In this document: piece by piece, positions 1 through 46,749 of the stretch
Position numbering within the stretch: position 1 is the stretch's first letter
How the letters are laid out: each line of letters starts with the position of its first letter
Source: Eledone cirrhosa
Taxonomy: Eukaryota
DNA length: 64,000 nucleotides
Reading direction: 5' to 3'
NCBI GenBank assembly: GCA_964016885.1
Contig: OZ024762.1
Span: 29,574,001 to 29,638,000, forward strand
Translations under genes and position numbers: made by a program
Notes under the pieces: model-generated
What the model was told of the DNA's origin: nothing
The model's input: only the letters and a program-made list of their open reading frames with translations
Databases searched by the model: none

Positions 1-3000
1 AGTAAGGGTAGAGGGTCAGATGTCAGGTTAGGGTGGTGGGTTGGCAGTAAGGGTAGAGTGTCAGATGTCAGGTTAGGGTGGTGGGTTGGCAGTAAGGGTA
101 GAGGGTCAGATGTCATGTTAGGGTGGTGGGTTGTCAGTAAGGGTAGAGGGTCAGATGTCAGGTTAGGGTGGTGGGTTGGCAGTAAGGGTAGAGGGTCAGA
201 TGTCAGGTTAGGGTGGTGGGTTGGCAGTAAGGGTAGAGGGTCAGATGTCATGTTAGGGTGGTGGGTTGGCAGTAAGGGTAGAGGGTCAGATGTCATGTTA
301 GGGTGGTGGGTTGGCAGTAAGGGTAGAGGGTCAGACACCATGTTAGGGTTGTGGGTTGGCAGTAAGGGTAGAGGGTCAGATGTCATGTTAGGGTGGTGGG
401 TTGGCAGTAAGGGTAGAGGGTCAGATGTCAGGTTAGGGTGGTGGGTTGGCAGTAAGGGTAGAGGGTCAGATGTCAGGTTAGGGTGGTGGGTTGGCAGTAT
501 TGGTAGAGGGTCAGATGTCAGGTTAGGGTGGTGGGTTGGCAGTATTGGTAGAGGGTCAGATGCCATGTTAGGGTGGTGGGTTGGCAGTATTGGTAGAGGG
601 TCAGATGTCAGGTTAGGGTGGTGGATTGGCAGTATTGGTAGAGGGTAAGATGTCAGGTTAGGGTGGTGGGTTGGCAGTATTGGTAGAGGGTCAGATGTCA
701 GGTTAGGGTGGTGGGTTGGCAGTATTGGTAGAGGGTCAGATGTCAGGTTAGGGTGGTGGGTTGGTAGTAAGGGTAGAGGGTCAGATGTCATGTTAGGATG
801 GTGGGTTGGCAGTATTGGTAGAGGGTCAGATGTCATGCTAGGGTGGTGGGTTGGCAGTAAGGGTAGAGGGTCAGATGTCAGGTTAGGGTGGTGGGTTGGC
901 AGTATTGGTAGAGGGTCAGATGTCAGGTTAGGGTGTTGGGTTGGTAGTAAGGGTAGAGGGTCAGATGTCAGGTTAGGGTGGTGGGTTGGCAGTATTGGTA
1001 GAGGGTCAGATGTCATGTTAGGGTGGTGGGTTGGCAGTATTGGTAGAGGGTCAGATGTCAGGTTAGGGTGGTGGGTTGGCAGTAAGGGTAGAGGATCAGA
1101 TGTCAGCTTAGGGTGGTGGGTTGGCAGTATTGGTAGAGGGTCAGATGTCAGGTTAGGGTGGTGGGTTGGCAGTATTGGTAGAGGGTCAGATGTCAGGTTA
1201 GGGTGGTGGGTTGGCAGTAAGGGTAGAGGGTCAGATGTCAGGTTAGGTTGGTGGGTTGGCAGTATTGGTAGAGGGTCAGATGTCAGGTTAGGGTGGTGGG
1301 TTGGCAGTATTGGTAGAGGGTCAGATGCCATGTTAGGGTGGTGGGTTGGCAGTAAGTGTAGAGGGTCAGATGTCATGTTAGGGGGGTAGATTGGCAGTAT
1401 TGGTAGAGGGTCAGCTGTCAGGTTAGGGTGGTGGGTTGGCAGTATTGGTAGAGGGTCAGATGTCAGGTTAGGGTGGTGGGTTGGCAGTAAGCGTAGAGGG
1501 TCAGATGTCAGGTTAGGGTGGTGGGTTGGCAGTAAGCGTAGAGGGTCAGATGTCAGGTTAGGGTGGTGGGTTGCCAGTATTGGTAGAGGGTCATATGTCA
1601 GGTTAGGGTGGTGGGTTGGCAGTAAGGGTAGAGGGTCAGATATCAGGTTAGGGTGGTGGGTTGGCAGTAAGGGTAGAGGGTCAGATGTCAGGTTAGGGTG
1701 GTGGGTTGGCAGTATTGGTAGAGGGTCAGATGTCAGGTTAGGGTGGTGGGTTGGCAGTAAGCGTAGAGGGTCAGATGTCAGGTTAGGGTGGTGGGTTGCC
1801 AGTATTGGTAGAGGGTCAGATGTCAGGTTAGGGTGGTGGGTTGGCAGTAAGGGTAGAGGGTCGGATGTCAGGTTAGGGTGGTGGGTTGGCAGTAAGGGTA
1901 GAGGGTCAGATGTCAGGTTAGGGTGGTGGGTTGGCAGTATTGGTAGAGGGTCAGATGTCATGTTAGGGTGGTGGGTTGGCAGTATTGGTAGAGGGTCAGA
2001 TGTCAGGTTAGGGTGGTGGGTTGGCAGTATTGGTAGAGGGTCAGATGTCAGGTTAGGGTGGTGGGTTGGCAGTAAGGGTAGAGGGTCAGACACCATGTTA
2101 GGGTGGTGGGTTGGCGGTAAGGGTAGAGGGTCAGACACCATGTTAGGGTGATGGGTTGGCAGTAAGGGTAGAGGGTCAGATGCCATGTTAGGGTGGTGGG
2201 TTGGCAGTAAGGGTAGAGGGTCAGATGCCATGTTAGGGTGGTGGGTTGGCAGTAAGGGTAGAGGGTCAGATGTCATGTTAGGGTGGTGGTTTGGCAGTAA
2301 GGGTAGAGGGTCAGATGTCAGGTTAGGGTGGTGGGTTGGCAGTAAGGGTAGAGGGTCAGATGTCAGGTTAGGGTGGTGGGTTGTCAGTAAGGGTAGAGGG
2401 TCAGATGTCAGGTTAGGGTGGTGGGTTGTCAGTAAGGGTAGAGGGTCAGATGTCAGGTTAGGGTGGTGGGTTGGCAGTAAGGGTAGAGGGTCAGATGTCA
2501 GGTTAGGGTGGTGGTTGGCAGTAAGGGTAGAGGGTCAGATGTCATGTTAGGGTGGTGGGTTGGCAGTAAGGGTAGAGGGTCAGATGTCATGTTAGGGTGG
2601 TGGGTTGGCAGTAAGGGTAGAGGGTCAGACACCATGTTAGGGTGGTGGGTTGGCAGTAAGGGTAGAGGGTCAGATGTCATGTTAGGGTGGTGGGTTGGCA
2701 GTAAGGGTAGAGGGTCAGATGTCAGGTTAGGGTGGTGGGTTGTCAGTAAGGGTAGAGGGTCAGATGTCAGGTTAGGGTGGTGGGTTGGCAGTAAGGGTAG
2801 AGGGTCAGATGTCAGGTTAGGGTGGTGGGTTGTCACTAAGGGTAGAGGGTCAGATGTCATGTTAGGGTGGTGGGTTGTCAGTAAGGGTAGAGGCTCAGAT
2901 GTCAGGTTAGGGTGGTGGGTTGTCAGTAAGGGTAGAGGGTCAGACACCATGTTAGGGTGGTGGGTTGGCAGTAAGGGTAGAGGGTCAGATGTCATGTTAG

Positions 3001-6000
3001 GGTGGTGGGTTGTCAGTAAGGGTAGAGGGTCAGGTGTCAGGTTAGGGTGGTGGGTTGGCAGTAAGGGTAGAGGGTCAGATGTCAGGTTAGGGTGGTGGGT
3101 TGTCAGTAAGGGTAGAGGGTCAGATGTCAGGTTAGGGTGGTGGGTTGTCAGTAAGGGTAGAGGGTCAGATGTCAGGTTAGGGTGGTGGGTTGGCAGTAAG
3201 GGTAGAGTGTCAGATGTCAGGTTAGGGTGGTGGGTTGGCAGTAAGGGTAGAGGGTCAGATGTCATGTTAGGGTGGTGGGTTGTCAGTAAGGGTAGAGGGT
3301 CAGATGTCAGGTTAGGGTGGTGGGTTGGCAGTAAGGGTAGAGGGTCAGATGTCAGGTTAGGGTGGTGGGTTGGCAGTAAGGGTAGAGGGTCAGATGTCAT
3401 GTTAGGGTGGTGGGTTGGCAGTAAGGGTAGAGGGTCAGATGTCATGTTAGGGTGGTGGGTTGGCAGTAAGGGTAGAGGGTCAGACACCATGTTAGGGTGG
3501 TGGGTTGGCAGTAAGGGTAGAGGGTCAGATGTCATGTTAGGGTGGTGGGTTGGCAGTAAGGGTAGAGGGTCAGATGTCAGGTTAGGGTGGTGGGTTGGCA
3601 GTAAGGGTAGAGGGTCAGATGTCAGGTTAGGGTGGTGGGTTGGCAGTATTGGTAGAGGGTCAGATGTCAGGTTAGGGTGGTGGGTTGGCAGTATTGGTAG
3701 AGGGTCAGATGCCATGTTAGGGTGGTGGGTTGGCAGTATTGGTAGAGGGTCAGATGTCAGGTTAGGGTGGTGGATTGGCAGTATTGGTAGAGGGTCAGAT
3801 GTCAGGTTAGGGTGGTGGGTTGGCAGTATTGGTAGAGGGTCAGATGTCAGGTTAGGGTGGTGGGTTGGCAGTATTGGTAGAGGGTCAGATGTCAGGTTAG
3901 GGTGGTGGGTTGGCAGTATTGGTAGAGGGTCAGATGTCATGTTAGGGTGGTGGGTTGGCAGTATTGGTAGAGGGTCAGATGTCAGGTTAGGGTGGTGGGT
4001 TGGCAGTAAGGGTAGAGGATCAGATGTCAGCTTAGGGTGGTGGGTTGGCAGTATTGGTAGAGGGTCAGATGTCAGGTTAGGGTGGTGGGTTGGCAGTATT
4101 GGTAGAGGGTCAGATGTCAGGTTAGGGTGGTGGGTTGGCAGTAAGGGTAGAGGGTCAGATGTCAGGTTAGGGTGGTGGGTTGGCAGTATTGGTAGAGGGT
4201 CAGATGTCAGGTTAGGGTGGTGGGTTGGCAGTATTGGTAGAGGGTCAGATGCCATGTTAGGGTGGTGGGTTGGCAGTAAGTGTAGAGGGTCAGATGTCAT
4301 GTTAGGGGGGTAGATTGGCAGTATTGGTAGAGGGTCAGATGTCAGGTTAGGGTGGTGGGTTGGCAGTATTGGTAGAGGGTCAGATGTCAGGTTAGGGTGG
4401 TGGGTTGGCAGTAAGCGTAGAGGGTCAGATGTCAGGTTAGGGTGGTGGGTTGGCAGTAAGCGTAGAGGGTCAGATGTCAGGTTAGGGTGGTGGGTTGCCA
4501 GTATTGGTAGAGGGTCAGATGTCAGGTTAGGGTGGTGGGTTGGCAGTAAGGGTAGAGGGTCAGATGTCAGGTTAGGGTGGTGGGTTGGCAGTAAGGGTAG
4601 AGGGTCAGATGTCAGGTTAGGGTGGTGGGTTGGCAGTATTGGTAGAGGATCAGATGTCATGTTAGGGTGGTGGGTTGGCAGTATTGGTAGAGGGTCAGAT
4701 GTCAGGTTAGGGTGGTGGGTTGGCAGTAAGCGTAGAGGGTCAGATGTCAGGTTAGGGTGGTGGGTTGCCAGTATTGGTAGAGGGTCAGATGTCAGGTTAG
4801 GGTGGTGGGTTGGCAGTAAGGGTAGAGGGTCAGATGTCAGGTTAGGGTGGTGGGTTGGCAGTAAGGGTAGAGGGTCAGATGTCAGGTTAGGGTGGTGGGT
4901 TGGCAGTATTGGTAGAGGGTCAGATGTCAGGTTAGGGTGGTGGGATGGCAGTATTGGTAGAGGGTCAGATGTCAGGTTAGGGTGGTGGGTTGGCAGTATT
5001 GGTAGAGGGTCAGATGTCAGATTAGGGTGGTGGGTTGGCAGTAAGGGTAGAGGGTCAGACACCATGTTAGGGTGGTGGGTTGGCGGTAAGGGTAGAGGGT
5101 CAGACACCATGTTAGGGTGATGGGTTGGCAGTAAGGGTAGAGGGTCAGATGCCATGTTAGGGTGGTGGGTTGGCAGTAAGGGTAGAGGGTCAGATGCCAT
5201 GTTAGGGTGGTGGGTTGGCAGTAAGGGTAGAGGGTCAGATGTCATGTTAGGGTGGTGGTTTGGCAGTAAGGGTAGAGGGTCAGATGTCAGGTTAGGGTGG
5301 TGGGTTGTCAGTAAGGGTAGAGGGTCAGATGTCAGGTTAGGGTGGTGGGTTGGCAGTAAGGGTAGAGGGTCAGATGTCAGGTTAGGGTGGTGGGTTGTCA
5401 GTAAGGGTAGAGGGTCAGATGTCAGGTTAGGGTGGTGGGTTGTCAGTAAGGGTAGAGGGTCAGATGTCAGGTTAGGGTGGTGGGTTGGCAGTAAGGATAG
5501 AGGGTCAGATGTCAGGTTAGGGTGGTGGGTTGGCAGTAAGGGTAGAGGGTCAGATGTCATGTTAGGGTGGTGGGTTGGCAGTAAGGGTAGAGGGTCAGAT
5601 GTCATGTTAGGGTGGTGGGTTGGCAGTAAGGGTAGAGGGTCAGACACCATGTTAGGGTGGTGGGTTGGCAGTAAGGGTAGAGTGTCAGATGTCATGTTAG
5701 GGTGGTGGGTTGGCAGTAAGGGTAGAGGGTCAGATGTCAGGTTAGGGTGGTGGGTTGTCAGTAAGGGTAGAGGGTCAGATGTCAGGTTAGGGTGGTGGGT
5801 TGGCAGTAAGGGTAGAGGGTCAGATGTCAGGTTAGGGTGGTGGGTTGTCACTAAGGGTAGAGGGTCAGATGTCATGTTAGGGTGGTGGGTTGTCAGTAAG
5901 GGTAGAGGGTCAGATGTCAGGTTAGGGTGGTGGGTTGGCAGTAAGGGTAGAGGGTCAGATGTCAGGTTAGGGTGGTGGGTTGGCAGTAAGCGTAGAGGGT

Positions 6001-9000
6001 CAGATGTCAGGTTAGGGTGGTGGGTTGGCAGTAAGCGTAGAGGGTCAGATGTCAGGTTAGGGTGGTGGGTTGCCAGTATTGGTAGAGGGTCAGATGTCAG
6101 GTTAGGGTGGTGGGTTGGCAGTAAGGGTAGAGGGTCAGATGTCAGGTTAGGGTGGTGGGTTGGCAGTAAGGGTAGAGGGTCAGATGTCAGGTTAGGGTGG
6201 TGGGTTGGCAGTATTGGTAGAGGATCAGATGTCATGTTAGGGTGGTGGGTTGGCAGTATTGGTAGAGGGTCAGATGTCAGGTTAGGGTGGTGGGTTGGCA
6301 GTAAGCGTAGAGGGTCAGATGTCAGGTTAGGGTGGTGGGTTGCCAGTATTGGTAGAGGGTCAGATGTCAGGTTAGGGTGGTGGGTTGGCAGTAAGGGTAG
6401 AGGGTCGGATGTCAGGTTAGGGTGGTGGGTTGTCAGTAAGGGTAGAGGGTCAGATGTCAGGTTAGGGTGGTGGGTTGGCAGTATTGGTAGAGGGTCAGAT
6501 GTCAGGTTAGGGTGGTGGGTTGGCAGTATTGGTAGAGGGTCAGATGTCAGGTTAGGGTGGTGGGTTGGCAGTATTGGTAGAGGGTCAGATGTCAGGTTAG
6601 GGTGGTGGGTTGGCAGTAAGCGTAGAGGGTCAGACACCATGTTAGGGTTGTGGGTTGGCGGTAAGGGTAGAGGGTCAGACACCATGTTAGGGTGATGGGT
6701 TGGCAGTAAGGGTAGAGGGTCAGATGCCATGTTAGGGTGGTGGGTTGGCAGTAAGGGTAGAGGGTCAGATGCCATGTTAGGGTGGTGGGTTGGCAGTAAG
6801 GGTAGAGGGTCAGATGTCATGTTAGGGTGGTGGTTTGGCAGTAAGGGTAGAGGGTCAGATGTCAGGTTAGGGTGGTGGGTTGGCAGTAAGGGTAGAGGGT
6901 CAGATGTCATGTTAGGGTGGTGGGTTGGCAGTAAGGGTAGAGGGTCAGATGTCAGGTTAGGGTGGTGGGTTGTCAGTAAGGGTAGAGGGTCAGATGTCAG
7001 GTTAGGGTGGTGGGTTGGCAGTAAGGGTAGAGGGTCAGATGTCAGGTTAGGGTGGTGGGTTGGCAGTAAGGGTAGAGGGTCAGATGTCATGTTAGGGTGG
7101 TGGGTTGGCAGTAAGGGTAGAGGGTCAGATGTCATGTTAGGGTGGTGGGTTGGCAGTAAGGGTAGAGGGTCAGACACCATGTTAGGGTGGTGGGTTGGCA
7201 GTAAGGGTAGAGGGTCAGATGTCATGTTAGGGTGGTGGGTTGGCAGTAAGGGTAGAGGGTCAGATGTCAAGTTAGGGTGGTGGGTTGTCAGTAAGGGTAG
7301 AGGGTCAGATGTCAGGTTAGGGTGGTGGGTTGGCAGTAAGGGTAGAGGGTCAGATGTCAGGTTAGGGTGGTGGGTTGTCACTAAGGGTAGAGGGTCAGAT
7401 GTCATGTTAGGGTGGTGGGTTGTCAGTAAGGGTAGAGGCTCAGATGTCAGGTTAGGGTGGTGGGTTGTCAGTAAGGGTAGAGGGTCAGACACCATGTTAG
7501 GGTGGTGGGTTGGCAGTAAGGGTAGAGGGTCAGATGTCATGTTAGGGTGGTGGGTTGTCAGTAAGGGTAGAGGGTCAGGTGTCAGGTTAGGGTGGTGGGT
7601 TGGCAGTAAGGGTAGAGGGTCAGATGTCAGGTTAGGGTGGTGGGTTGTCAGTAAGGGTAGAGGGTCAGATGTCAGGTTAGGGTGGTGGGTTGGCAGTAAG
7701 GGTAGAGTGTCAGATGTCAGGTTAGGGTGGTGGGTTGGCAGTAAGGGTAGAGGGTCAGATGTCATGTTAGGGTGGTGGGTTGTCAGTAAGGGTAGAGGGT
7801 CAGATGTCAGGTTAGGGTGGTGGGTTGGCAGTAAGGGTAGAGGGTCAGATGTCAGGTTAGGGTGGTGGGTTGGCAGTAAGGGTAGAGGGTCAGATGTCAT
7901 GTTAGGGTGGTGGGTTGGCAGTAAGGGTAGAGGGTCAGATGTCATGTTAGGGTGGTGGGTTGGCAGTAAGGGTAGAGGGTCAGACACCATGTTAGGGTTG
8001 TGGGTTGGCAGTAAGGGTAGAGGGTCAGATGTCATGTTAGGGTGGTGGGTTGGCAGTAAGGGTAGAGGGTCAGATGTCAGGTTAGGGTGGTGGGTTGGCA
8101 GTAAGGGTAGAGGGTCAGATGTCAGGTTAGGGTGGTGGGTTGGCAGTATTGGTAGAGGGTCAGATGTCAGGTTAGGGTGGTGGGTTGGCAGTATTGGTAG
8201 AGGGTCAGATGCCATGTTAGGCTGGTGGGTTGGCAGTATTGGTAGAGGGTCAGATGTCAGGTTAGGGTGGTGGATTGGCAGTATTGGTAGAGGGTAAGAT
8301 GTCAGGTTAGGGTGGTGGGTTGGCAGTATTGGTAGAGGGTCAGATGTCAGGTTAGGGTGGTGGGTTGGCAGTATTGGTAGAGGGTCAGATGTCAGGTTAG
8401 GGTGGTGGGTTGGTAGTAAGGGTAGAGGGTCAGATGTCATGTTAGGATGGTGGGTTGGCAGTATTGGTAGAGGGTCAGATGTCATGCTAGGGTGGTGGGT
8501 TGGCAGTAAGGGTAGAGGGTCAGATGTCAGGTTAGGGTGGTGGGTTGGCAGTATTGGTAGAGGGTCAGATGTCAGGTTAGGGTGTTGGGTTGGTAGTAAG
8601 GGTAGAGGGTCAGATGTCAGGTTAGGGTGGTGGGTTGGCAGTATTGGTAGAGGGTCAGATGTCATGTTAGGGTGGTGGGTTGGCAGTATTGGTAGAGGGT
8701 CAGATGTCAGGTTAGGGTGGTGGGTTGGCAGTAAGGGTAGAGGATCAGATGTCAGGTTAGGGTGGTGGGTTGGCAGTATTGGTAGAGGGTCAGATGTCAG
8801 GTTAGGGTGGTGGGTTGGCAGTATTGGTAGAGGGTCAGATGCCATGTTAGGGTGGTGGGTTGGCAGTAAGTGTAGAGGGTCAGATGTCATGTTAGGGGGG
8901 TAGATTGGCAGTATTGGTAGAGGGTCAGATGTCAGGTTAGGGTGGTGGGTTGGCAGTATTGGTAGAGGGTCAGATGTCAGGTTAGGGTGGTGGGTTGGCA

Positions 9001-12000
9001 GTAAGCGTAGAGGGTCAGATGTCAGGTTAGGGTGGTGGGTTGGCAGTAAGCGTAGAGGGTCAGATGTCAGGTTAGGGTGGTGGGTTGCCAGTATTGGTAG
9101 AGGGTCAGATGTCAGGTTAGGGTGGTGGGTTGGCAGTAAGGGTAGAGGGTCAGATATCAGGTTAGGGTGGTGGGTTGGCAGTAAGGGTAGAGGGTCAGAT
9201 GTCAGGTTAGGGTGGTGGGTTGGCAGTATTGGTAGAGGATCAGATGTCATGTTAGGGTGGTGGGTTGGCAGTATTGGTAGAGGGTCAGATGTCAGGTTAG
9301 GGTGGTGGGTTGGCAGTAAGCGTAGAGGGTCAGATGTCAGGTTAGGGTGGTGGGTTGCCAGTATTGGTAGAGGGTCAGATGTCAGGTTAGGGTGGTGGGT
9401 TGGCAGTAAGGGTAGAGGGTCAGATGTCAGGTTAGGGTGGTGGGTTGGCAGTAAGGGTAGAGGGTCAGATGTCAGGTTAGGGTGGTGGGTTGGCAGTATT
9501 GGTAGAGGGTCAGATGTCAGGTTAGGGTGGTGGGATGGCAGTATTGGTAGAGGGTCAGATGTCAGGTTAGGGTGGTGGGTTGGCAGTATTGGTAGAGGGT
9601 CAGATGTCAGGTTAGGGTGGTGGGTTGGCAGTAAGGGTAGAGGGTCAGACACCATGTTAGGGTGGTGGGTTGGCGGTAAGGGTAGAGGGTCAGACACCAT
9701 GTTAGGGTGATGGGTTGGCAGTAAGGGTAGAGGGTCAGATGCCATGTTAGGGTGGTGGGTTGGCAGTAAGGGTAGAGGGTCAGATGCCATGTTAGGGTGG
9801 TGGGTTGGCAGTAAGGGTAGAGGGTCAGATGTCATGTTAGGGTGGTGGTTTGGCAGTAAGGGTAGAGGGTCAGATGTCAGGTTAGGGTGGTGGGTTGTCA
9901 GTAAGGGTAGAGGGTCAGATGTCAGGTTAGGGTGGTGGGTTGGCAGTAAGGGTAGAGGGTCAGATGTCAGGTTAGGGTGGTGGGTTGTCAGTAAGGGTAG
10001 AGGGTCAGATGTCAGGTTAGGGTGGTGGGTTGTCAGTAAGGGTAGAGGGTCAGATGTCAGGTTAGGGTGGTGGGTTGGCAGTAAGGATAGAGGGTCAGAT
10101 GTCAGGTTAGGGTGGTGGGTTGGCAGTAAGGGTAGAGGGTCAGATGTCATGTTAGGGTGGTGGGTTGGCAGTAAGGGTAGAGGGTCAGATGTCATGTTAG
10201 GGTGGTGGGTTGGCAGTAAGGGTAGAGGGTCAGACACCATGTTAGGGTGGTGGGTTGGCAGTAAGGGTAGAGGGTCAGATGTCATGTTAGGGTGGTGGGT
10301 TGGCAGTAAGGGTAGAGGGTCAGATGTCAGGTTAGGGTGGTGGGTTGTCAGTAAGGGTAGAGGGTCATATGTCAGGTTAGGGTGGTGGGTTGGCAGTAAG
10401 GGTAGAGGGTCAGATGTCAGGTTAGGGTGGTGGGTTGTCACTAAGGGTAGAGGGTCAGATGTCATGTTAGGGTGGTGGGTTGTCAGTAAGGGTAGAGGGT
10501 CAGATGTCAGGTTAGGGTGGTGGGTTGGCAGTAAGGGTAGAGGGTCAGATGTCAGGTTAGGGTGGTGGGTTGGCAGTATTAGTAGAGGGTCAGATGTCAG
10601 GTTAGGGTGGTGGGTTGGCAGTAAGGGTAGAGGGTCAGATGTCAGGTTAGGGTGGTGGGTTGGCAGTAAGTGTAGAGGGTCAGATGTCAGGTTAGGGTGG
10701 TGGGTTGGCAGTATTGGTAGAGGGCCAGATGTCAGGTTAGGATGGTGGGTTGGCAGTATTGGTAGAGGGTCAGATGTCAGGTTAGGGTGGTGGATTGAAC
10801 GTATTGGTAGAGGGTCAGATGTCAGGTTAGGGTGGTGGGTTGGCAGTAAGGGTAGAGGGTCAGACACCATGTTAGGGTGGTGGGTTGGCAGTAAGGGTAG
10901 AGGGTCAGACACCATGCTAGGGTGATGGGTTGGCAGTAAGGGAAGAGGGTCAGATGCCATGTTAGGGTGGTGGGTTGGCAGTAAGTGTAGAGGGTCAGAT
11001 GCCATGTTAGGGTGGTGGGTTGGCAGTTAGCGTAGAGGGTCAGATGTCATGTTAGGGTGGTGGTTTGGCAGTAAGGGTAGAGGGTCAGATGTCAGTTTAG
11101 GGTGGTGGGTTGTCAGTAAGGGTAGAGGGTCAGATGTCAGGTTAGGGTGGTGGGTTGTCAGTAAGGGTAGAGGGTCAGATGTCAGGTTAGGGTGGTGGGT
11201 TGTCAGTAAGGGTAGAGGGTCAGATGTCAGGTTAGGGTGGTGGGTTGGCAGTAAGGGTAGAGGGTCAGATTTCATGTTAGGGTGGTGTGTTGGCAGTAAG
11301 GGTAGAGGGTCAGATGTCATGTTAGGGTGGTGGGTTGGCAGTAAGGGTAGAGGGTCAGACACCATGTTAGGGTGGTGGGTTGGCAGTAAGGGTAGAGGGT
11401 CAGATGTCAGGTTAGTGTGGTGGGTTGCCAGTATTGGTAGAGGGTCAGATGTCAGGTTAGGGTGGTGGGTTGGCAGTAAGGGTAGAGGGTCAGATGTCAG
11501 GTTAGGGTGGTGGGTTGTCAGTAAGGGTAGAGGGTCAGATGTCAGGTTAGGGTGGTGGGTTGGCAGTAAGGGTAGAGGGTCAGATGTCAGGTTAGGGTGG
11601 TGGGTTGTCAGTAAGGGTAGAGGGTCAGATGTCAGGTTTGGGTGGTGGGTTGTCAGTAAGGGTAGAGGGTCAGATGTCAGGTTAGGGTGGTGGGTTGGCA
11701 GTAAGGGTAGAGGGTCAGATGTCAGGTTAGGGTGGTGGGTTGGCAGTATTGGTAGAGGGTCAGATGTCAGGTTAGGGTGGTGGGTTGGCAATATTGGTAG
11801 AGGGTCAGATGCCATGTTAGGGTGGTGTGTTGGCAGTATTGGTTGAGGGTCAGATGTCAGGTTAGGGTGGTGGATTGGCAGTATTGGTAGAGGGTCAGAT
11901 GTCATGTTAGGGTGGTGGGTTGGCAGTATTGGTAGAGGGTCAGATGTCAGGTTACGGTGGTGGGTTGGCAGTATTGGTAGAGGGTCAGATGTCAGGTTAG

Positions 12001-15000
12001 GGTGGTGGGTTGGTAGTAAGGGTAGAGGGTCAGATGTCATGTTAGGGTGGTGGGTTGGCAGTATTGGTAGAGGGTCAGATGTCATGCTAGGGTGGTGGGT
12101 TGGCAGTAAGGGTAGAGGGTCAGATGTCAGGTTAGGGTGGTGGGTTGGCAGTATTGGTTAAAGGGTCAGATGTCAGGTTAGGGTGGTGGGTTGGTAGTAA
12201 GGGTAGAGGGTCAGATGTCAGGTTAGGGTGGTGGGTTGGTAGTATTGGTAGAGGGTCAGATGTCATGTTAGGGTGGTGGGTTGGCAGTATTGGTAGAGTG
12301 TCAGATGTCAGGTTAGGGTGGTGGGTTGGCAGTAAGGGTAGAGGATCAGATGTCAGGTTAGGGTGGTGGGTTGGCAGTATTGGTAGAGGGTCAGATGTCA
12401 GGTTAGGGTGGTGGGTTGGCAGTATTGGTAGAGGGTCAGATGTCAGGTTAGGGTGGTGGGTTGGCAGTAAGGGTAGAGGGTCAGATGTCAGGTTAGGGTG
12501 GTGGGTTGGCAGTATTGGTAGAGGGTCAGATGTCAGGTTAGGGTGGTGGGTTGGCAGTATTTGTAGAGGGTCAGATGCTATGTTAGGGTGGTGGGTTGGC
12601 AGTAAGGGTAGAGGGTCAGATGTCATGTTAGGGTGGTAGATTGGCAGTATTGGTAGAGGGTCAGATGTCAGGTTAGGGTGGTGGGTTGGCAGTATTGGTA
12701 GAGGGTCAGATGTCAGGTTAGGTTGGTGGGTTGGTAGTAAGGGTAGAGGGTCAGATGTCATGTTAGGGTGGTGGGTTGGCAGTATTGGTAGAGGGTCAGA
12801 TGTCATGCTAGGGTGGTGGGTTGGCAGTAAGGTTAGAGGGTCAGATGTCAGGATAGGGTGGTGGGTTGGCAGTATTGGTAGAGGGTCAGATGTCAGGTTA
12901 GGGTGGTGGGTTGGTAGTAAGGGTAGAGGGTCAGATGTCAGGTTAGGGTGGTGGGTTGGCAGTATTGGTAGAGGGTCAGATGTCATGTTAGGGTGGTGTG
13001 TTGGCAGTATTGGTAGAGGGTCAGATGTCAGGTTAGCGTGGTGGGTTGGCAGTAAGGGTAGAGGGTCAGATGACAGGTTAGGGTGGTGGGTTGGCAGTAT
13101 TGGTAGAGGGTCAGATGTCAGGTTAGGGTGGTGGGTTGGCAGTAAGGGTAGAGGGTCAGATGTCAGGTTAGGGTGGTGGGTTGGCAGTATTGGTAGAGGG
13201 TCAGATGTCAGGTTAGGGTGGTGGGTTGGCAGTATTGGTAGAGGGTCAGATGCCATGTTAGGGTGGTGGGTTGGCAGTAAGGGTAGAGGGTCAGATGTCA
13301 TGTTAGGGTGGTAGATTGGCAGTATTGGTAGTTGGTCAGATGTCAGGTTAGGGTGGTGGGTTGGCAGTATTGGTAGAGGGTCAGATGTCAGGTTAGGCTG
13401 GTGGGTTGGCAGTATTGGTAGAGGGTCAGATGTCAGGTTAGGGTGGTGGGTTGTCAGTAAGGGTAGAGGGTCAGATGTCAGGTTAGGGTGGTGGGTTGGC
13501 AGTATTGGTAGAGGGTCAGATGTCAGGTTAGGGTGGTGGGTTGGCAGTATTGGTAGAGGGTCAGATGTCAGGTTAGGGTGGTGGGTTGGCAGTAAGGGTA
13601 GAGGATCAGACACCATGTTAGGGTGGTGGGTTGGCAGTAAGGGTAGAGGATCAGACACCATGTTAGGGTGGTGGGTTGGCAGTAAGGGTAGAGGGTCGGA
13701 CGCCATGTTAGGGTGGTGGGTTGGCAGTAAGGGTAGAGGGTCAGATGTCAGGTTAGGGTGGTGGGTTGGCAGTATTGGTAGAGGGTCACATGTCAGGTTA
13801 GGGTGGTGGTTTCGCAGTAAGGGTAGAGGGTCAGATGTCATGTTAGGGTGGTGGGTTGGCAATATTGGTAGAGGGTCAGATGTCAGGTTAGGGTGGTGGG
13901 TTGGCAGTAAGGGTAGAGGGTCAGACACCATGTTAGGGTGGTGGGTTGGCAGTAAGGGTAGAGGGTCGGACGCCATGTTAGGGTGGTGGGTTGGCAGTAA
14001 GGGTAGAGGGTCAGATGTCAGGTTAGGGTGGTGGGTTGGCAGTAAGGGTAGAGGGTCGGACGCCATGTTAGGGTGGTGGGTTGGCAGTAAGGGTAGAGGG
14101 TCAGATGTCAGGTTAGGGTGGTGGTTTGGCAGTAAGGGTAGAGGGTCAGATGTCATGTTAGGGTGGTGGGTTGGCAGTATTGGTAGAGGGTCAGATGTCA
14201 GGTTAGGGTGGTGGGTTGGCAGTAAGGTTAGAGGGTCAGACACCATATTAGGGTTGTGGGTTGGCAGTAAGGGTAGAGGTTCGGACGCCATGTTAGGGTG
14301 GTGGGTTGGCAGTATTGGTAGAGGGTCAGATGTCAGGTTAGGGTGGTGGGTTGGCAGTAAGGGTAGAGGGTCAGACACCATGTTAGGGTGGTGGGTTGGC
14401 AGTATAGGTAGAGGGTCAGATGTCATGTTAGGGTGGTGGGTTGGCAGTAAGGGTAGAGGGTCAGATGTCAGATTACGGTGGTGGGTTGGCAGTAAGGGTA
14501 GAGGGTCAGATGTCAGGTTAGGGTGGTGGGTTGGCAGTATTGGTAGAGGGTCAGACACCATGTTAGGGTGGTGGATTGGCAGTATTGGTAGAGGGTCAGA
14601 TGTCAGGTTAGGGTGGTGGGTTGGCAGTATTGGTAGAGGGTCAGACACCTTATTAGGGTGGTGGGTTGGCAGTAAGGGTAGAGGGTCAGACACCATGTTA
14701 GGGTGGTGGATTGGCAGTATTGGTAGAGGGTCAGATGTCAGGTTAGGGTGGTGGGTTGGCAGTAAGGGTAGAGGGTCAGACACCATGTTAGGGTGGTGGA
14801 TTGGCAGTATTGGTAGAGGGTCAGATTTTAGGTTAGGGTGGTGGGTTGGCAGTATTGGTAGAGGGTCAGACACCATGTTAGGGTGGTGGATTGGCAGTAT
14901 TGGTAGAGGGTCAGATGTCAGGTTAGGGTGGTGGGTTGGCAGTAAGGGTAGAGGGTCAGACACCATGTTAGGGTGGTGGATTGGCAGTATTGGTAGAGGG

Positions 15001-15145
15001 TCAGATGTCAGGTTAGGCTGGTGGGTTGGCAGTATTGGTAGAGGGTCAGACACCATGTTAGGGTGGTGGGTTGGCAGTAAGGGTAGAGGGTCAGACACCA
15101 TGTTAGGGTGGTGGATTGGCAGTATTGGTAGAGGGTCGGACGCCA
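1..15145 (+). repeat. 45-bp G-rich minisatellite array (~335 units, open at window start), derived from the 5' head of a tRNA-derived SINE
   Basis: Unit agtaagggtagagggtcagatgtcaggttagggtggtgggttggc, with common variants agtattggta, gacaccatg and gatgccatg. It has one TTAGGG per unit and up to four GGG tracts, and runs directly into a complete SINE at ~15105. Confidence 0.97.
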
Positions 15146-15300
15146 TTCTTTGACACATAGAGTTACGGCCCTTTCCATTCTGAGTTCAAATCCCGCCGAG
15201 GTTAACTTTGCCTTTCATCCTTACGGGGTCAATAAGATAAAGTACCAGTAATACACTGGGGTAATTGCTGGCCTTGTGCCTAACGTAGAAACAATTATTA
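15105..15300 (+). mobile_element. tRNA-derived SINE (family A), essentially full length
   Basis: A-box-like TGGCAGTATTGG at 15117 and B-box GAGTTCAAATCC at 15182. Central GCCTTTCATCCTTACGGGGTC..TAAAGTACCAG resembles the Meta-SINE domain. 3' end is gccttgtgcctaacgtagaaacaattatta. At least five other copies occur in the window. Confidence 0.85.
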
Positions 15301-15304
15301 CAGT

Positions 15305-15480
15305 CCATCCAATGTAGCATGCATGCATGCTTCCTGTGTACCAGTCTTCTGCACACACCGCCAAAATCTCGCTACCATGCAACATTGATGTTCCTATGCA
15401 GGCATTAAACAGTTTGCCTTCCATTTTCAGGGAAAAGTCTTCCATCGCGCGGATAAACCCCCAACTATTGCTGCTACTCA
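15305..15480 (-). pseudogene. Short degenerate RTE LINE ORF fragment
   Basis: Minus-strand translation FSLKMEGKLFNACIGTSMLHGSEILAVCAED matches the RTE C-terminal segment at 28986-29378 (MKGRLYDACIQTAMLHGSETWALCAED). Confidence 0.75.
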
Positions 15481-15499: not shown

Positions 15500-18400
15500 G
15501 ATCAACATGAAATGTGTTTTGATCAACATGGAATTTGTTTTGATCAACATGAAATGTGTTTTGATCAACATGAAATGTGTTTTGATCAACATGAAATGTG
15601 TTTTGATCAACATGAAATGTGTTTTGTTCAACATGGAATGTGTTTTGTTCAACATGAAATGTGTTTTGATCAACATGAAATGTGTTTTGACCAACATGAA
15701 ATGTGTTTTGACCAACATGGAATGTGTTTTGATCAACATGAAATGTGTTTTGACCAACATGGAATGTGTTTTTGATCAACATGAAATGTGTTTTGACCAA
15801 CATGAAATGTGTTTTGACCAACATGAAATGTGTTTTGATCAACATGAAATGTTTTGACCAACATGAAATGTGTTTTGATCAAGATGAAATGTGTTTTGAT
15901 CAACATGAAATGTGTTTTGATCAACATGAAATGTGTTTTGACCAACATGAAATGTGTTTTGATCAACATGAAATGTGTTTTGACCAACATGAAATGTGTT
16001 TTGATCAACATGAAATGTGTTTTGACCAACATGAAATGTGTTTTGATCAACATGAAATGTGTTTTGATCAACATGAAATGTGATTTGTTCAACATGAAAT
16101 GTGTTTTGATCAACATGAAATGTGTTTTGATCAACATGAAATGTGTTTTGACCAACATGAAATGTGTTTTGATCAACATGAAATGTGTTTTGACCAACAT
16201 GAAATGTGTTTTGATCAACATGAAATGTGTTTTGATCAACATGAAATGTGATTTGATCAACATGAAATGTGTTTTGATCAACATGAAATGTGTTTTCATC
16301 AACATGAAATGTGTTTTGACCAACATGAAACGTGTTTTGATCAACATGAAATGTGTTTTGACCAACATGAAATGTGTTTTGACCAACATGAAATGTGTTT
16401 TGACCAACATGAAATGTGTTTTGATCAACATGAAATGTGTTTTGATCAACATGAAATGTGTTTTGATCAACATGAAATGTGTTTTGACCAACATGAAATG
16501 TGTTTTGATCAACATGAAATGTGTTTTGATCAACATGAAATGTGTTTTGACTAACATGAAATGTGTTTTGATCAACATGAAATGTGTTTTGACTAACATG
16601 AAATGTGTTTTGATCAACATGAAATGTGTTTTGTTCAACATGGAATGTGTTTTGTTCAACATGGAATGTGTTTTGTTCAACATGAAATGTGTTTTGACCA
16701 ACATGAAATGTGTTTTGATCAAGATGAAATGTGTTTTGACCAACATGGAATGTGTTTTGATCAACATGAAATGTGTTTTGATCAATATGAAGTGTGTTTT
16801 GACCAACATGAAATGTGTTTTGACCAACATGAAATGTGTTTTGATCAATATGAAATGTGTTTTGACCAACATGAAATGTGTTTTGAAAAACATGAAATGT
16901 GTTTTGATCAACATGAAATGTGTTTTGATCAACATGAAATGTGTTTTGATCAACATGAAATGTGTTTTGATCAACATGAAATGTGTTTTGACCAACATGA
17001 AATGTGTTTTGATCAACATGAAATGTGTTTTGATCAACATGAAATGTGTTTTGATCAACATGAAATGTGTTTTGACCAACATGAAATGTGTTTTGATCAA
17101 CATGAAATGTGTTTTGATCAACATGAAATGTGTTTTGACCAACATGAAATGTGTTTTGACCAACATGAAATGTGTTTTGATCAACATGAAATGTGTTTTG
17201 ATCAACATGAAATGTGTTTTGATCAACATGAAATGTGTTTTGATCAAGATGAAATGTGTTTTGATCAACATGAAATGTGTTTTGATCAACATCAAATGTG
17301 TTTTGATCAACATGAAATGTGTTTTGATCAACATGAAATGTGTTTTGACCAACATGAAATGTGTTTTGATCAACATGAAATGTGTTTTGATCAACATGAA
17401 ATGTGTTTTGATCAACATGAAATGTGTTTTGACTAACATGAAATGTGTTTTGATCAACATGAAATGTGTTTTGATCAACATGAAATGTGTTTTGATCAAC
17501 ATGAAATGTGTTTTCACCAACATGAAATGTGTTTTGTTCAACATGGAATGTGTTTTGTTCAACATGAAATGTGTTTTGATCAACATGAAATGTGTTTTGA
17601 TCAACATGAAATGTGTTTTGACTAACATGAAATGTGTTTTGATCAACATGAAATGTGTTTTGACCAACATGAAATGTGTTTTGTTCAACATGGAATGTGT
17701 TTTGTTCAACATGAAATGTGTTTTGACCAACATGAAATGTGTTTTGATCAAGATGAAATGTGTTTTGATCAACATGGAATGTGTTTTCATCAACATGAAA
17801 TGTGTTTTGATCAACATGAAATGTGTTTTGATCAACATGAAATGTGTTTTGATCAACATGAGATGTGTTTTGACCAACATGCAATGTGTTTTTGATCAAC
17901 ATGAAATGTGTTTTGACCAACATGAAATGTGTTTTGACCAACATGGAATGTGTTTTTGATCAACATGAAATGTTTTGATCAACATGAAATGTGTTTTGAT
18001 CAACATGAAATGTGTTTTGACCAACATGGAATGTGTTTTGATCAACATGAAATGTGTTTTGATCAATATGAAGTGTGTTTTGACCAACATGAAATGTGTT
18101 TTGACCAACATGAAATGTGTTTTGATCAACATGAAATGTGTTTTGACCAACATGAAATGTGTTTTGAAAAACATGAAATGTGTTTTGATCAACATGAAAT
18201 GTGTTTTGATCAACATGAAATGTGTTTTGATCAACATGAAATGTGTTTTGATCAACATGAAATGTGTTTTGACCAACATGAAATGTGTTTTGATCAACAT
18301 GAAATGTGTTTTGACCAACATGGAATGTGTTTTGATCAACATGAAATGTGTTTTGACCAACATGAAATGTGTTTTGATCAACATGAAATGTGTTTTGATC

Positions 18401-18806
18401 AACATGAAATGTGTTTTGACCAACATGAAATGTGTTTTGATCAACATGAAATGTGTTTTGATCAACATGGAATGTGTTTTGATCAACATGAAATGTGTTT
18501 TGATCAACATGGAATGTGTTTTGATCAACATGAAATGTGTTTTCACCAACATAAAATGTGTTTTGACCAACATGAAATGTGTTTGATCAACATGAAATGT
18601 GTTTTGACCAACATGAAATGTGTTTTGACCAACATGAAATGTGTTTTGACCAACATGAAATGTGTTTTGAGCAACATGAAATGTGTTTTGACCAACATGA
18701 AATGTGTTTTGATCAACATGAAATGTGTTTTGACCAACATGAAATGTGTTTTGATCAACATGAAATGTGTTTTGATCAACATGGAATGTGTTTTGATCAA
18801 CATGAA
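15500..18806. repeat. 21-bp minisatellite array (~157 units)
   Basis: Unit gatcaacatgaaatgtgtttt, with gacc, gttc and catgg variants and few indels. Confidence 0.97.
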
Positions 18807-18957
18807 ACCCACCGAAAATAAATAAGACATTATGATCTTAAGTCAAACACACCTACACTACGTGTCTCCAATCAAAAATACATATACATTATATATTCAT
18901 TAGTTAAGCAAAACAAGACCACAAATTTCACAAGGAAGACATTATTAAAAGAATGTC

Positions 18958-20153: not shown

Positions 20154-20449
20154 TCTACATTCCTTACATCAAACTAAAATATGTTGACAATCTTTTAATA
20201 ATGTCTTCCTTGTGAAATTTGTGGTCTTGTTTTGCTTAACTAATGAATATTTCCAGCTCTGCGCACCTAACTTCTGCATGAACCCAGCCACCTAGCTGTT
20301 TTCTACTGCATATTGCACATTGAGCACATGCCTTTACGCTTTGGCTTCTAACTAATTCACCAATCTCTCCTCTCATATCTCCTCTCCTATCTCCATCTCT
20401 CTCTTTAAGATTGGTTACTCTTGAACTGTGTATACATTATATATATAAT

Positions 20450-20640
20450 TGTTTCTACTTTTGGCACAAGGCCAGTAATTATCCCAGTACGTTACTGGTA
20501 CTTTTATTTTATCGACCCCGTAAGGATGAAAGGCAAAGTTAACCTTGGAGGGATTTGAACTCAGACCGTAAAGGGACGTAACTCTATTCTGCAAAGCATG
20601 GCATCCGACCCTCTACCGATACTGCCAATCCACCTCCTTT
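20450..20640 (-). mobile_element. tRNA-derived SINE family A copy with 17-bp TSD
   Basis: Reverse complement of the 15105-15300 SINE, flanked by tacattatatatataat at 20433-20449 and 20641-20657. Confidence 0.88.
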
Positions 20641-24696: not shown

Positions 24697-26227
24697 GGTG
24701 TCATACCCAAAGACTGGTACAGCAGTATTCTCATAAATTGCTACATATATAAAGGGGATGCTCTGGAGAGGAGCAATTATAGGGGCATAAAGCTGATGGA
24801 TCAGGTTATGATAGTGGCAGAGAGAATATTAGCTGATTAGAGAAAGGGTCAATTTAGATGAGATGCAGTTTGGTTTTGTGCCTGGGAAAAGTACAAAAGA
24901 TGCCCTCTTCTTGGTGAGACAATTGCAAGAGAGGTTCTTAGAGAAGAATAAGTCACTATACTTAGTCTTTGTTGACCTAGAGAAGGCCTTTGATAGGGTA
25001 CCCCAATCTGTCATCTGGTGGTCCCTAAGGAAACTAGGTGTAGAGGAATGGCTTGTGAGGACAGTGCAAGCTATGTACAGGGGTGCTGTCAGTAAAGTGA
25101 GGGTAGGAATGGAATTTAGTGAGGAATTCCAGATACAAGTAGGTGTACATCAGGGTTCGGCCCTCAGCCCACTCTTGTTCATTATAGTCCTCCAAGCCAT
25201 AACAGAGGAGTTTAAGACTGGATGCCCATGGGAACTTCTCTGTGCTGATGAACTGGTTCTTAAAGCAGAATCAGTAGAGGTGCTAGAGTATAAATTCTGG
25301 CTATGGAAACAGCAGTTGGAATCAAGAGGCCTGAGAGTGAACATAGCTAAGACAAAAGTGTTGATGAGTAGAAAAGAGGACAAAACTCTGATTCCATCAG
25401 GGAAATGGCCATGTTCGATATGTAGGAAAGGAACTGGCATAAATTCCATAAAATGTACGCAATGCAGATCTTAGGTACACAAGAGATGTAGTGGGATAGT
25501 AGGCAAACTAACAGGTAGGGAAAACTACATATGCAGTAGATGTACAGGGACATTTGACAGTAGGAGTCGCAGTGATAGACACATTTTTCCAATGCAGGTG
25601 GGTTCTATAGAAGTGGTTGATAGCTTCTGGTACCTAGGTTATCAGATTAGCATGGGAGGGGGGGGGGGGTCCGAGGCCATAGTATCTAGAGTAAGGATGG
25701 GTTGGAAGAAGTTTAGGGAGCTGCTTCCTTTGTTGACAAAGAACGGTTTCTCCCTGCATACGAAAGGACGGTTATATGATGCCTGTGTGAGATGCTGCTT
25801 GGTAGTAAGACATGGGCAGCAACTGCAAAGGATATGTGAAGGCTGGAGAGAAGCAAGTATGGTCCGTTGGATGTGCAATGTCAATGTGTGTGAACGACCA
25901 AGCATAGATGAGTTGAGAAAGAAACTGGGTATAAGAGGGATAGGTTGTGGTGTGCAGGAGAGAAGACTGAGATGGTATGGACATGTGATGCGCATGGGGG
26001 ATGACCGCTGGGTAAAGAAGTGCCAAGAAATCCCAGTAGAAGAAAGACGCAGTAGAGGTAGACCATGTAAAACATGAGCAGAGGTGGTGAGAGAAGACCT
26101 CAGAACGCTGAAGCTCATAGAGGAGATGACAAAGGACCGTGACAAGTCGAGAGATGCTGTGCTGAATAGGACCCGTCCCACCCTTGCAAGCAGGGAAAAG
26201 TGGATGTAAAATGATGATGAAGATGAT
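24697..26227 (+). mobile_element. 5'-truncated RTE LINE: degenerate RT, PHD-like finger, C-terminus and (GAT)n tail
   Basis: Motifs NYRGIKL, QFGFVPGKST.DA, FVDLEKAFDRVP, GVHQGSALSPLLF, LCADEL (YADD degenerate) and RRLRWYGHVMR. The 3' end is cccttgcaagcagggaaaagtggatgtaaaatgatgatga. Confidence 0.92.
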
Positions 26228-41741: not shown

Positions 41742-42675
41742 AAATGCATATAATGTTACCTTTTTACACCACCGTTTGCAAATTTCTATTTTATATGTTT
41801 ATACACAAGATATGGCTTTCTATGAGAATAATACTAAGCACTGTTTTCTGGACCCCTTTAGAAATAACTGTTTCTACTTTAGGCACAAGGCCAGCAATTA
41901 TCCAGTACATTACTGGTACTTTATTTTATCGACCCCGTAAGGATGAAAGGCAAAGTCAACCTCGGCGGGATTTGAACTCAGATCGTAAAGGGACGTAACT
42001 GTGCTGGAAAACATGGCGTCCGACCCTCTACCGATACTGCCAATTAGAAATAACTGTTTCTACGTTAGGCACAAGGCCAGCAATTAACCAGTGCATTACT
42101 GGTACTTTATTTTATCGACCCCGTAAGGATGAAAGGCAAAATTAACCTCGGCGGGATTTGAACTCAGATCGTAAAGGGACGTAACTATGCTGGAAAGCAT
42201 GGCGTCCGACCCTCCACCGATACTGCCAATCCACCGCCAATTAGAAATAACCTGCTACTATAATAGCCCCAATAACTTGTCTGTAACTCTGTAGCACTTT
42301 GACCCCTTTAACTAAATTTTGTCCGAACAACACCACTAGAAGAATTTACTTCCCCCGCCAACCCTAACACGCCTCATTAAGCTAACAGCTGCCAAAACAT
42401 TCTCTCCTTACAATCTCTACTAGTCTGACAGTCTTAAATCCTAGGACTCCCTCCACCTTACTCACTTCCTACCTCCTTCTTTCTCTTTTATCTAGTATAT
42501 AAAATATTTTCATATCATTCCAATACAAAGGTCTGACGACATGGTCTGTCTGCTTGCAGTGTACCTTCGGTTTATGATAATATTTTTATATTATTCAAAT
42601 AGCGAGGTATAGGTAACCCACACACTATAGAAACAATTGTTACCTAATAAATTCTTTATACCCGCATTACCGTTT
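41742..42675 (+). mobile_element. Second copy of the PLE 3'/pLTR region, interrupted by two SINEs
   Basis: Colinear with ~27938-28510 apart from the 41869-42251 insert. It contains the hammerhead-like motif at 42529-42645 (CTGACGA...GAAACAATTGTT-acct). Confidence 0.88.
41869..42240 (-). mobile_element. Two tandem SINE family A copies (41869-42043 and 42055-42240)
   Basis: Both are reverse complements of the 15105 SINE. ttagaaataac occurs at 41858, 42044 and 42241, but only once at the empty site near 28053. Confidence 0.9.
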
Positions 42676-46383: not shown

Positions 46384-46565
46384 TTGGCAGTATTGGTAGA
46401 GGGTCGGATGCCATGCTTTCCAGCATAGTTACGTCCCTTTACGATCTGAGTTCAAATCCTGCCGAGGTTGACTTTGCCTTTCATCCTTACGGGGTAGATA
46501 AAATAAAGTACCAGTAATGCACTGGGTAATTGCTGGCCTTGTGCCTAAAGTAGAAACAATTATTA
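46384..46565 (+). mobile_element. SINE family A copy
   Basis: ttggcagtattggtagagggtcggatgccatgc...gagttcaaatcc...gtagaaacaattatta. Confidence 0.9.
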
Positions 46566-46749
46566 GATCTAATGTTGCAACGATACAGTTAAATGTTGTC
46601 TGTGTATTTTAAAAAAGATTTGCTTATAATCTTTTCAAATTTCATTACGCCAATGATTCAAGCTCAAATTGACATTATCTAAAAAATTGTACAAACAGCG
46701 GTGGATTAGCAGTAGTGAACAGATAAATCAGTCAATTTATTAAGATTGA

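What the first reader, a model, noticed from the sequence alone, without database searches (positions are those of the whole stretch)
1..15300. 15-kb minisatellite made of SINE heads: ~335 A-box units in front of one B-box, with TTAGGG and G4 potential
Seen: the 45-mer aligns with the first ~42 nt of SINE family A (ggcggtggattggcagtatcggtagagggtcggacgccatg, e.g. the minus copy ending at 42240), and the array runs without a break into a full SINE body at ~15105-15300. Units nearest the SINE are enriched in SINE-like variants (ggattggc, agtattgg, gacaccatg, gtcggacgcc). Distal units are dominated by derived variants (gggttggc, agtaaggg) that complete four GGG tracts per unit. Every unit has a TTAGGG at the junction. 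Established: TGGCNNAGTGG-like A-box plus GTTCRA B-box is the type-2 Pol III promoter, and TTAGGG is the common metazoan telomere repeat. Inference: the SINE head seeded a polarised expansion drifting toward a G-quadruplex-forming, telomere-like sequence, possibly affecting TFIIIC or telomere-protein binding.
Basis: partly seen in the sequence, partly recalled or inferred. Interest (0 to 1): 0.7.

Follow-up and report, generated by a model that had tools for sequence, protein, structure and literature searches.

The report
310-kb satellite grown from SINE head
A 45-letter piece from the front of a common jumping element is repeated about 6,900 times in a row here and in shorter runs at more than 200 other copies of that element, likely grown in place and passed between copies by recombination; this kind of repeat is known from reptiles, and the telomere-like and four-stranded-DNA features look incidental.

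Summary
The array is real but is 310 kb, not 15 kb: 6,901 units plus a terminal head running into one SINE body. The unit is SINE nt 1-45. It is one of about 234 or more SINE copies with tandem heads (2 to thousands), most short ones still inside a target-site duplication. Two paralogues of this same insertion carry only 11 heads, so copy number changed in place. Multi-head copies occur across SINE subfamilies without clustering and crowd towards the ends of the two large chromosomes tested. The proposed gradient is only an edge effect in the last ~27 units. Three other long arrays of this unit score lower for G-quadruplex than the ancestral head, with TTAGGG at only ~30% of junctions; TTAGGG is never tandem. 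It meets the features of SINE-derived satellites (sSats) described in squamates. Open point: one precise head-to-head junction recurs everywhere, even on 5'-truncated hosts; I think it likely spreads between SINE copies by ectopic recombination (about 0.5).

The parts
1..15104 (+). Last 5% of a 310-kb array of 45-bp SINE-head units (whole array G000:C23:29,278,722-29,589,147; 6,901 units)
14522..15104 (+). Edge zone of about 13 units alternating between two types (90-bp dimer); holds most of the SINE-like variants
   Evidence: neighbour distance 6.0 at lag 1, 3.1 at lag 2 (2.6 and 3.0 array-wide)
15105..15149 (+). Terminal head = SINE nt 1-45; nt 45 lies near the tip of a predicted ~90-nt hairpin of the SINE
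   Evidence: fold of this copy; other copies
15117..15128 (+). A-box-like motif of the terminal head, one mismatch to the recalled consensus
15182..15193 (+). The only B-box on this strand; none inside the array
15150..15300 (+). SINE body (subfamily 'c' in my sorting) with (ATT)n tail
15301..15440 (-). LINE fragment into which the SINE inserted; the neighbouring part of the same LINE is the unit of the 80-bp array upstream of the 45-bp array
15500..18807 (+). 21-bp array, shared with the two C27 paralogues
42041..42240 (-). Ordinary single-head SINE copy used for comparison; others at 20445-20637 (-), 41858-42044 (-), 46384-46573 (+), 47871-48006 (+), 44900-44951 (+)

Best explanation
This is a 310-kb satellite whose unit is the first 45 nt of an abundant SINE, still attached to that SINE's body; its copy number changed in place, likely by unequal recombination, and the head-to-head junction that starts such arrays was likely copied into many resident SINE copies by recombination between loci. 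Step 1 (inferred): a founder junction joined nt 45, at the tip of the SINE's predicted hairpin, to nt +1 with no shared bases, probably during a reverse-transcription event. Step 2 (inferred, about 0.5): breaks in the head of an ordinary SINE are repaired from a multi-head copy elsewhere, out of register, adding heads while the host's flanks, target-site duplication and body stay. Step 3 (in-place change shown, direction and mechanism inferred): units are gained and lost locally. Step 4 (shown): point changes, many at CpG, spread through the array; here some lengthened G runs. No function is needed. Confidence by step: identity 0.95, in-place change 0.9, G4/TTAGGG incidental 0.8, spread between loci 0.5.
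For: In place: two C27 paralogues match the terminal head, body and 3' flank at 392 of 394 nt and have 11 heads against 6,902; 53 of 79 closed multi-head loci have a target-site duplication of 12 nt or more round heads plus body, against 23 of 948 mismatched pairs; head counts run 2, 3, 4 ... 40+. Family: 211 junction-plus-body matches within one mismatch plus 23 exact matches of a second allele, against 39,506 exact heads. Not one lineage: subfamilies a/b/c are 40/12/11 among multi-head and 30/12/13 among single-head bodies (p 0.59); the label needs 38 changes on the tree, shuffles 40.8. Not from the host's own 5' end: in 8 of 53 loci with a duplication the outermost head lacks 4-10 nt, yet inner heads start at +1; the junction base equals the host's flank base in 8 of 35. 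Place-dependent: median distance to a contig end 20 vs 145 Mb on C1 (8 vs 52 copies, p 4e-8) and 20 vs 153 Mb on the left half of C2 (8 vs 28, p 1e-6). Copied, not remade: no junction of 46-48 nt with templated CTT in the genome. Hosts are more often full-length (35 of 53 vs 11 of 29, p 0.02). In 3 of 8 hosts with a common head variant no upstream head has it.
Against: In 4 of 8 two-head loci whose terminal head has a non-CpG variant, the extra head shares it; one fresh conversion from another locus would not give that, so later local turnover must be assumed. No locus with a consensus terminal head has mostly variant heads upstream (0 of 84), though a few are expected from random donors. Extra heads in short loci are nearly unmutated, so the large old arrays are not the donors. 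The junction sits at +1 and at the hairpin tip in subfamilies a and b (in the loop in c), and rarer 49-51-nt junctions also end near the tip, which fits a recurring RNA-level event. On mid-sized C7 multi-head copies also lie centrally. The tree has few columns (145; 2 starred branches). All loci were found with patterns anchored on the 45-nt junction; periods 42-44 were not searched. No recombination map was available.
Confidence: 0.5

Rival explanations
1. The junction is remade at insertion: the reverse transcriptase reaches +1 of the SINE RNA, jumps onto a 5' half cut at the hairpin tip (of the same or another RNA) and copies the head again; two-head copies then collapse in chromosome interiors and persist or grow near ends.
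For: Junction exactly +1 to hairpin tip, no shared bases; all subfamilies in proportion; truncated outer heads with full inner heads; shared variants are common source-type variants (4,618 and 1,496 copies) and are in both heads in 4 of 8 two-head loci; nt 44 varies within 16 of 41 loci (inflated by my search patterns). End-to-end template jumping by R2-type enzymes is recalled, not read here.
Against: Only 3 of 25 two-head loci lie more than 55 Mb from a contig end, where about 40% of the genome lies by the contig lengths seen; no 46-48-nt junctions with templated CTT, though cutting and jumping should be imprecise.
Confidence: 0.27
2. Multi-head copies are themselves source genes: Pol III starts at an upstream head (A-box about 110 nt from the B-box instead of 65) and makes two-head RNA that retrotransposes, like the monomers of mouse L1.
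For: Explains the exact junction, shared variants in both heads, truncated outer heads (one begins late in the head, L149) and two heads being the commonest class (25 of 93).
Against: Multi-head bodies do not cluster and are not younger (0.038 vs 0.026 median distance, p 0.08); new insertions should spread evenly, and do not.
Confidence: 0.13
3. One reading: polarised expansion selected or driven towards a G-quadruplex, telomere-like sequence that binds TFIIIC or telomere proteins.
For: This array has G4Hunter 0.95 vs 0.71, 15% of 25-nt windows at 1.2 or more vs none, and TTAGGG at 94% of junctions; it lies 1.25 Mb from the contig end.
Against: No gradient; G4 score rises slightly towards the SINE (rho +0.10); other long arrays have lower G4 scores and little TTAGGG; head number and G4 score are unrelated in 52 short loci (rho 0.13, p 0.36); no tandem TTAGGG; no B-box on the array's + strand.
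Confidence: 0.06
4. The junction or the length is an assembly artefact.
For: No independent long read across the array was available; the best-matching run may be the assembly's own sample.
Against: The same array-SINE join is at two paralogues and over 200 other loci; the array has 621 different 45-nt units and no N; a head-to-head joint appears in a few raw reads of two other samples under the same species label (6 and 9 reads).
Confidence: 0.04

Closest known systems
SINE-derived satellites (sSat1-3) of squamate reptiles, Vassetzky et al. 2023, PMC10702118 (parts 1-4 of 5 read; supplements not read)
   Same: Unit is part of a SINE; one terminal unit continues to the SINE's end; many loci share one unit; near chromosome ends while the SINE is spread evenly; about 94% unit identity in long loci; alternating subvariants; a minor gecko variant (sSat3Ppi2) matches the tRNA part.
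   Different: Not a reptile (octopod-like by recall and earlier scan notes; the paper leaves open whether sSats occur outside squamates); unit 45 nt vs about 67-290; holds the A-box part only; 6,901 units vs up to about 1,200; in the parts read the paper reports no target-site duplications, truncated hosts or subfamily independence and names unequal recombination and concerted evolution in general terms.
Human Alu-derived minisatellites: Ahmed and Liang 2012, PMC3389668 (passages and section 3.4 read); Jurka and Gentles 2006 (not held; seen only as cited; that the unit is about the first 44 nt of Alu is recalled)
   Same: Partial SINE repeated next to a full copy (136 cases, mean 88.6 bp, discussed as 5'-end duplications); most have two units; start mechanism mostly unexplained.
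   Different: Mean 2.3-2.4 units and mostly single-locus there; Jurka and Gentles invoke short flanking direct repeats, absent at this junction.
Mouse L1 5' monomer arrays (recalled; also named in earlier scan note e1-8673048)
   Same: Tandem promoter-region units at the 5' end of a retrotransposon, inside the target-site duplication.
   Different: Those are Pol II promoters carried in the RNA of defined subfamilies; here units hold half a Pol III promoter, are not tied to a subfamily and depend on chromosome position.
Interstitial telomeric sequence / G4 minisatellites such as CEB1, CEB25 (recalled)
   Same: TTAGGG hexamers and G runs on one strand.
   Different: No tandem TTAGGG; only 2 short-loop G4 motifs in 310 kb; sister arrays grew without these features.

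Membership tests
SINE-derived satellite (sSat) | Repeat unit is part of a SINE and shorter than it | tested here: met
   Unit = nt 1-45 of a ~190-nt SINE; score 43 vs shuffle max 27
SINE-derived satellite (sSat) | Terminal unit continues to the SINE's end | tested here: met
   15105-15300; same at the other loci inspected, one exception L276
SINE-derived satellite (sSat) | Four or more middle units; same unit at many loci | tested here: met
   6,901 units; about 234 or more loci
SINE-derived satellite (sSat) | Near chromosome ends while the SINE is spread evenly | tested here: met
   C1 and left half of C2 only; true telomeres not seen, the C23 contig ends in a 54-bp array
SINE-derived satellite (sSat) | Homogeneous units in long loci | tested here: met
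   93-94% matches; about 3 differences per unit at any lag
tRNA-derived SINE | A- and B-box, simple-repeat tail, target-site duplications, high copy number | tested here: met
   B-box, (ATT)n tail, duplications, 39,506 exact heads; A-box has one mismatch to the recalled consensus
tRNA-derived SINE | Head homologous to a tRNA | tested here: inconclusive
   No ARAGORN gene, no Rfam tRNA hit on this SINE
tRNA-derived SINE | Transcribed by Pol III | not testable with these tools
   No RNA run listed
Interstitial telomeric sequence | Tandem (TTAGGG)n | tested here: not met
   0 TTAGGGTTAGGG in 310 kb
G4-forming unstable minisatellite | Four G3 tracts with loops of 1-7 nt | tested here: not met
   2 matches; 2,549 if loops up to 12 nt are allowed
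G4-forming unstable minisatellite | Folds into a G4 in vitro | not testable with these tools
   Needs CD or G4-seq
G4-forming unstable minisatellite | Growth depends on G4 potential | tested here: not met
   Other long arrays 0.60-0.66, below ancestral 0.71
L1-type 5' monomer promoter array | Monomers travel in the RNA of a defined subfamily | tested here: not met
   No clustering on the body tree (weakly resolved)
L1-type 5' monomer promoter array | Each monomer has promoter activity | not testable with these tools
   No B-box in the units on this strand; no expression data

The most novel reading that the evidence does not exclude
A contagious minisatellite: one head-to-head junction, first made at the tip of the SINE's hairpin, spreads by ectopic conversion into hundreds of already inserted SINE copies of any subfamily in recombination-rich regions, turning each into a satellite seed that can reach 310 kb. 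Target-site duplications and subfamily marks record each host, so the dispersal step of satellite evolution could be read locus by locus.
Probability: 0.4. Interest if true: 0.65.

Novelty: new member of a known kind. Interest (0 to 1): 0.42.

Why it matters
How one satellite unit with fixed ends appears at hundreds of unlinked places is an open step in satellite evolution; the papers read leave it at general recombination (PMC10702118) or call most starts unexplained (PMC3389668). Here the whole series from 2 to 6,902 heads is in one genome, with host duplications, truncations, subfamily marks and 39,506 ordinary copies as controls, so conversion, insertion-time and source-gene models make separable predictions. 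It also extends sSats beyond reptiles. Nothing here shows a function for the array.

Tried and rejected
ARAGORN and Rfam found no tRNA or other RNA family on the SINE (the miRNA hits are AT repeats). The 45-nt unit alone does not fold better than shuffles (z -0.07 to 0.61), so unit hairpin slippage was rejected; the 112-nt SINE front does (z -3.2). A new SINE inserted into an old head was rejected: duplications enclose the whole element. Local duplication from the host's own 5' flank was rejected. No strong long-range higher-order period (best exact-match lag 10% vs median 6%). No RNA holder was listed. Contigs of another organism label (X4) cover the junction bins at high depth, and short contigs of X6-X8 overlap it, but no listed piece has 31 letters on both sides, so sharing with relatives is only a hint. 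A search for variant-bearing heads was swamped by one long array. A first per-position count parsed 60 of 73 loci, the later one 93 of 96. Papers: 8 searches found no description of this family; Jurka and Gentles 2006 and Ames et al. 2008 are not held, nor were the older octopus SINE papers seen except as citations, so the SINE was not assigned to a named family. The sSat paper's supplements, unread, may hold closer cases.

Full report
Observation. TRF gives a 45-bp array at 1-15137, 336 copies, 93% matches. Splitting it gave 335 units, 333 of 45 nt, then a terminal head that runs into a SINE body with a B-box at 15182. The window is G000:C23:29,574,001-29,638,000. Fetching 300 kb upstream showed the array goes on without N to C23:29,278,722: 6,901 units plus the terminal head, 310,426 bp, 1.25 Mb from the contig end. 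The commonest unit aligns to the window's SINE copy with score 43 against 14.2 +/- 2.4 in 2,000 shuffles.

Gradient, G4, TTAGGG. Identity to the ancestral head is flat at 0.81-0.83 in 23 bins; over the whole array rho is -0.07, and in the window without the last 27 units -0.03 (p 0.58). The last 27 units reach 0.844, just above every interior stretch of that size, and the last ~13 alternate between two types: an edge effect. AGTATTGG is not enriched near the SINE and is in about half of all units. Four or more GGG tracts are in 2,565 of 6,900 units. The array is more G4-prone than its ancestor (0.95 vs 0.71), but short-loop motifs number 2. TTAGGG is at 6,473 of 6,901 junctions, never tandem.

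The unit. Full-length SINE copies start AGGGCGG; the bases before AG vary. The unit is nt +1 to 45 joined head to tail with no shared bases; TTAGGG needs only C-to-T at nt 44. Folding puts nt 45 at the last paired base before the apical loop of a ~90-nt hairpin in subfamilies a and b, and in or next to the loop in c, the window's copy included. These folds are predictions.

A genome-wide family. A DNA search found the unit on at least 12 contigs; every locus whose end I fetched had a SINE body 3' of the heads except L276. Junction-plus-body patterns gave 211 matches within one mismatch and 23 exact for a second allele (a few of the 211 are internal units; older copies are missed), against 39,506 exact single-pattern heads. 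Of 96 loci examined 93 were parsed: 25 have two heads, the rest up to 40 or more, one has a partial second head. Other long arrays: about 34 kb (C1:3.0 Mb), about 110 kb by samples (C1:20.7 Mb), 18 kb or more (C3:17.2 Mb), 71 kb or more (C1:10.3 Mb). The first three score 0.60-0.66 on G4Hunter with TTAGGG at 28-34% of junctions, so neither feature is needed for growth. Rarer periods exist: 49-51 nt at five places and 38-41 nt (100 of 182 matches listed), the latter derivable from the 45-mer by deletion.

Change in place. Two C27 loci share this insertion (392 of 394 nt) but have 11 heads, already with the G-rich variants; whether C23 grew or C27 shrank is not shown, but the SINE began with one head. 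53 of 79 closed loci have a target-site duplication of 12 nt or more round heads plus body; mismatched pairs give 23 of 948. At this locus the SINE sits in a LINE fragment whose neighbouring part became an 80-bp array of about 170 kb (8 samples) and a 21-bp array follows; the 48-, 49- and 111-bp arrays of the window also match dispersed repeats. The region turns local sequence into arrays whatever it is. The original 5' end and duplication are not recognisable here: the 45-bp and 80-bp arrays meet at different points on C23 and C27.

How the junction got to so many copies. Multi-head bodies fall into subfamilies like single-head ones (p 0.59) and do not cluster on a tree of 125 bodies (38 changes vs 40.8; 107 of 500 shuffles as low; subfamily label 9 changes; weak resolution). 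In 8 of 53 loci the outer head is truncated by 4-10 nt yet inner heads are complete, so the junction came from another molecule. Multi-head copies lie near the ends of C1 and C2 while a control set of 348 young copies is spread through them (only these two contigs tested). No 46-48-nt junction with templated CTT exists. These favour copying of an existing junction into resident SINEs by recombination between loci. Against: 4 of 8 informative two-head loci share a variant between heads, the two variants counted are common, and none of 84 consensus hosts has mostly variant heads upstream. An insertion-time template jump (0.27) and multi-head source genes (0.13) stay open.

Independent data. The 310-kb length rests on the assembly alone. 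No RNA run was listed.

Known systems. The architecture meets the features of squamate sSats (PMC10702118, parts 1-4 of 5 read). Partial Alu repeats beside a full Alu are known in humans (PMC3389668, section 3.4). Reviews PMC9659126 and PMC6947457 (passages) list further cases; PMC4758252 and PMC13023118 (passages) added nothing specific. The octopod-like identity is recalled and echoed by earlier scan notes, not tested. Scan look-ups: 8 of 293 fitting notes were shown, none on this family; none by sequence or nearby place.

Verdict. Real, much larger than reported, a new member of a known kind; the telomere/G4 reading is not supported. The interest lies in the testable dispersal of one junction. 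Interest 0.42.

Noticed in passing
G000:C23 about 29,105,800-29,278,700 (L081-L088, L179): An 80-bp array of about 170 kb made from a LINE coding segment just after the reverse transcriptase region, abutting the 45-bp array; about 7 kb on one C27 paralogue.
   Followed up: partly
L001 and L002, 1800-1860: A short inverted piece of the 80-bp unit sits next to the junction in both C27 paralogues, whose 80-bp arrays run opposite to the one on C23.
   Followed up: no
window 50216-64000, 37760-38552, 39491-40808, 33781-35588: Arrays of 111, 49, 48 and 170 bp whose units match dispersed repeats in 25, 22, 21 and 9 fetched loci.
   Followed up: partly
window 41858-42240 (-): Two near-full SINE copies in tandem, tail to head, the second lacking its first ~10 nt.
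   Followed up: no
G000:C3 356.78-356.82 Mb and 376.92-376.96 Mb: Long arrays (about 47 kb each, by pattern hits) with 41-nt head units.
   Followed up: no
L274, L275, L276 (C2:20.3-22.0 Mb), L266 (C5:129.7 Mb): Independent 50- and 49-nt head junctions; 50-nt units occur both pure and mixed into 45-nt arrays at nearby loci.
   Followed up: partly
L256 (C25:29.25 Mb): A two-head copy whose outer head carries the TAAGGG variant typical of the window's array; possible conversion from it or recurrence.
   Followed up: no
window 29436-30689 (-), 24833-25471 (+): Broken LINE frames with Pfam RVT_1; the first also has a PHD finger before the RT domain.
   Followed up: partly
SINE nt 1-95, e.g. L143:1509-1620: The SINE front folds into a long imperfect hairpin (z -3.2) kept in all subfamilies, not a cloverleaf; a possible editing substrate.
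   Followed up: partly
L091 (last 10 kb of C23): The contig ends in a 54-bp array with no TTAGGG.
   Followed up: no
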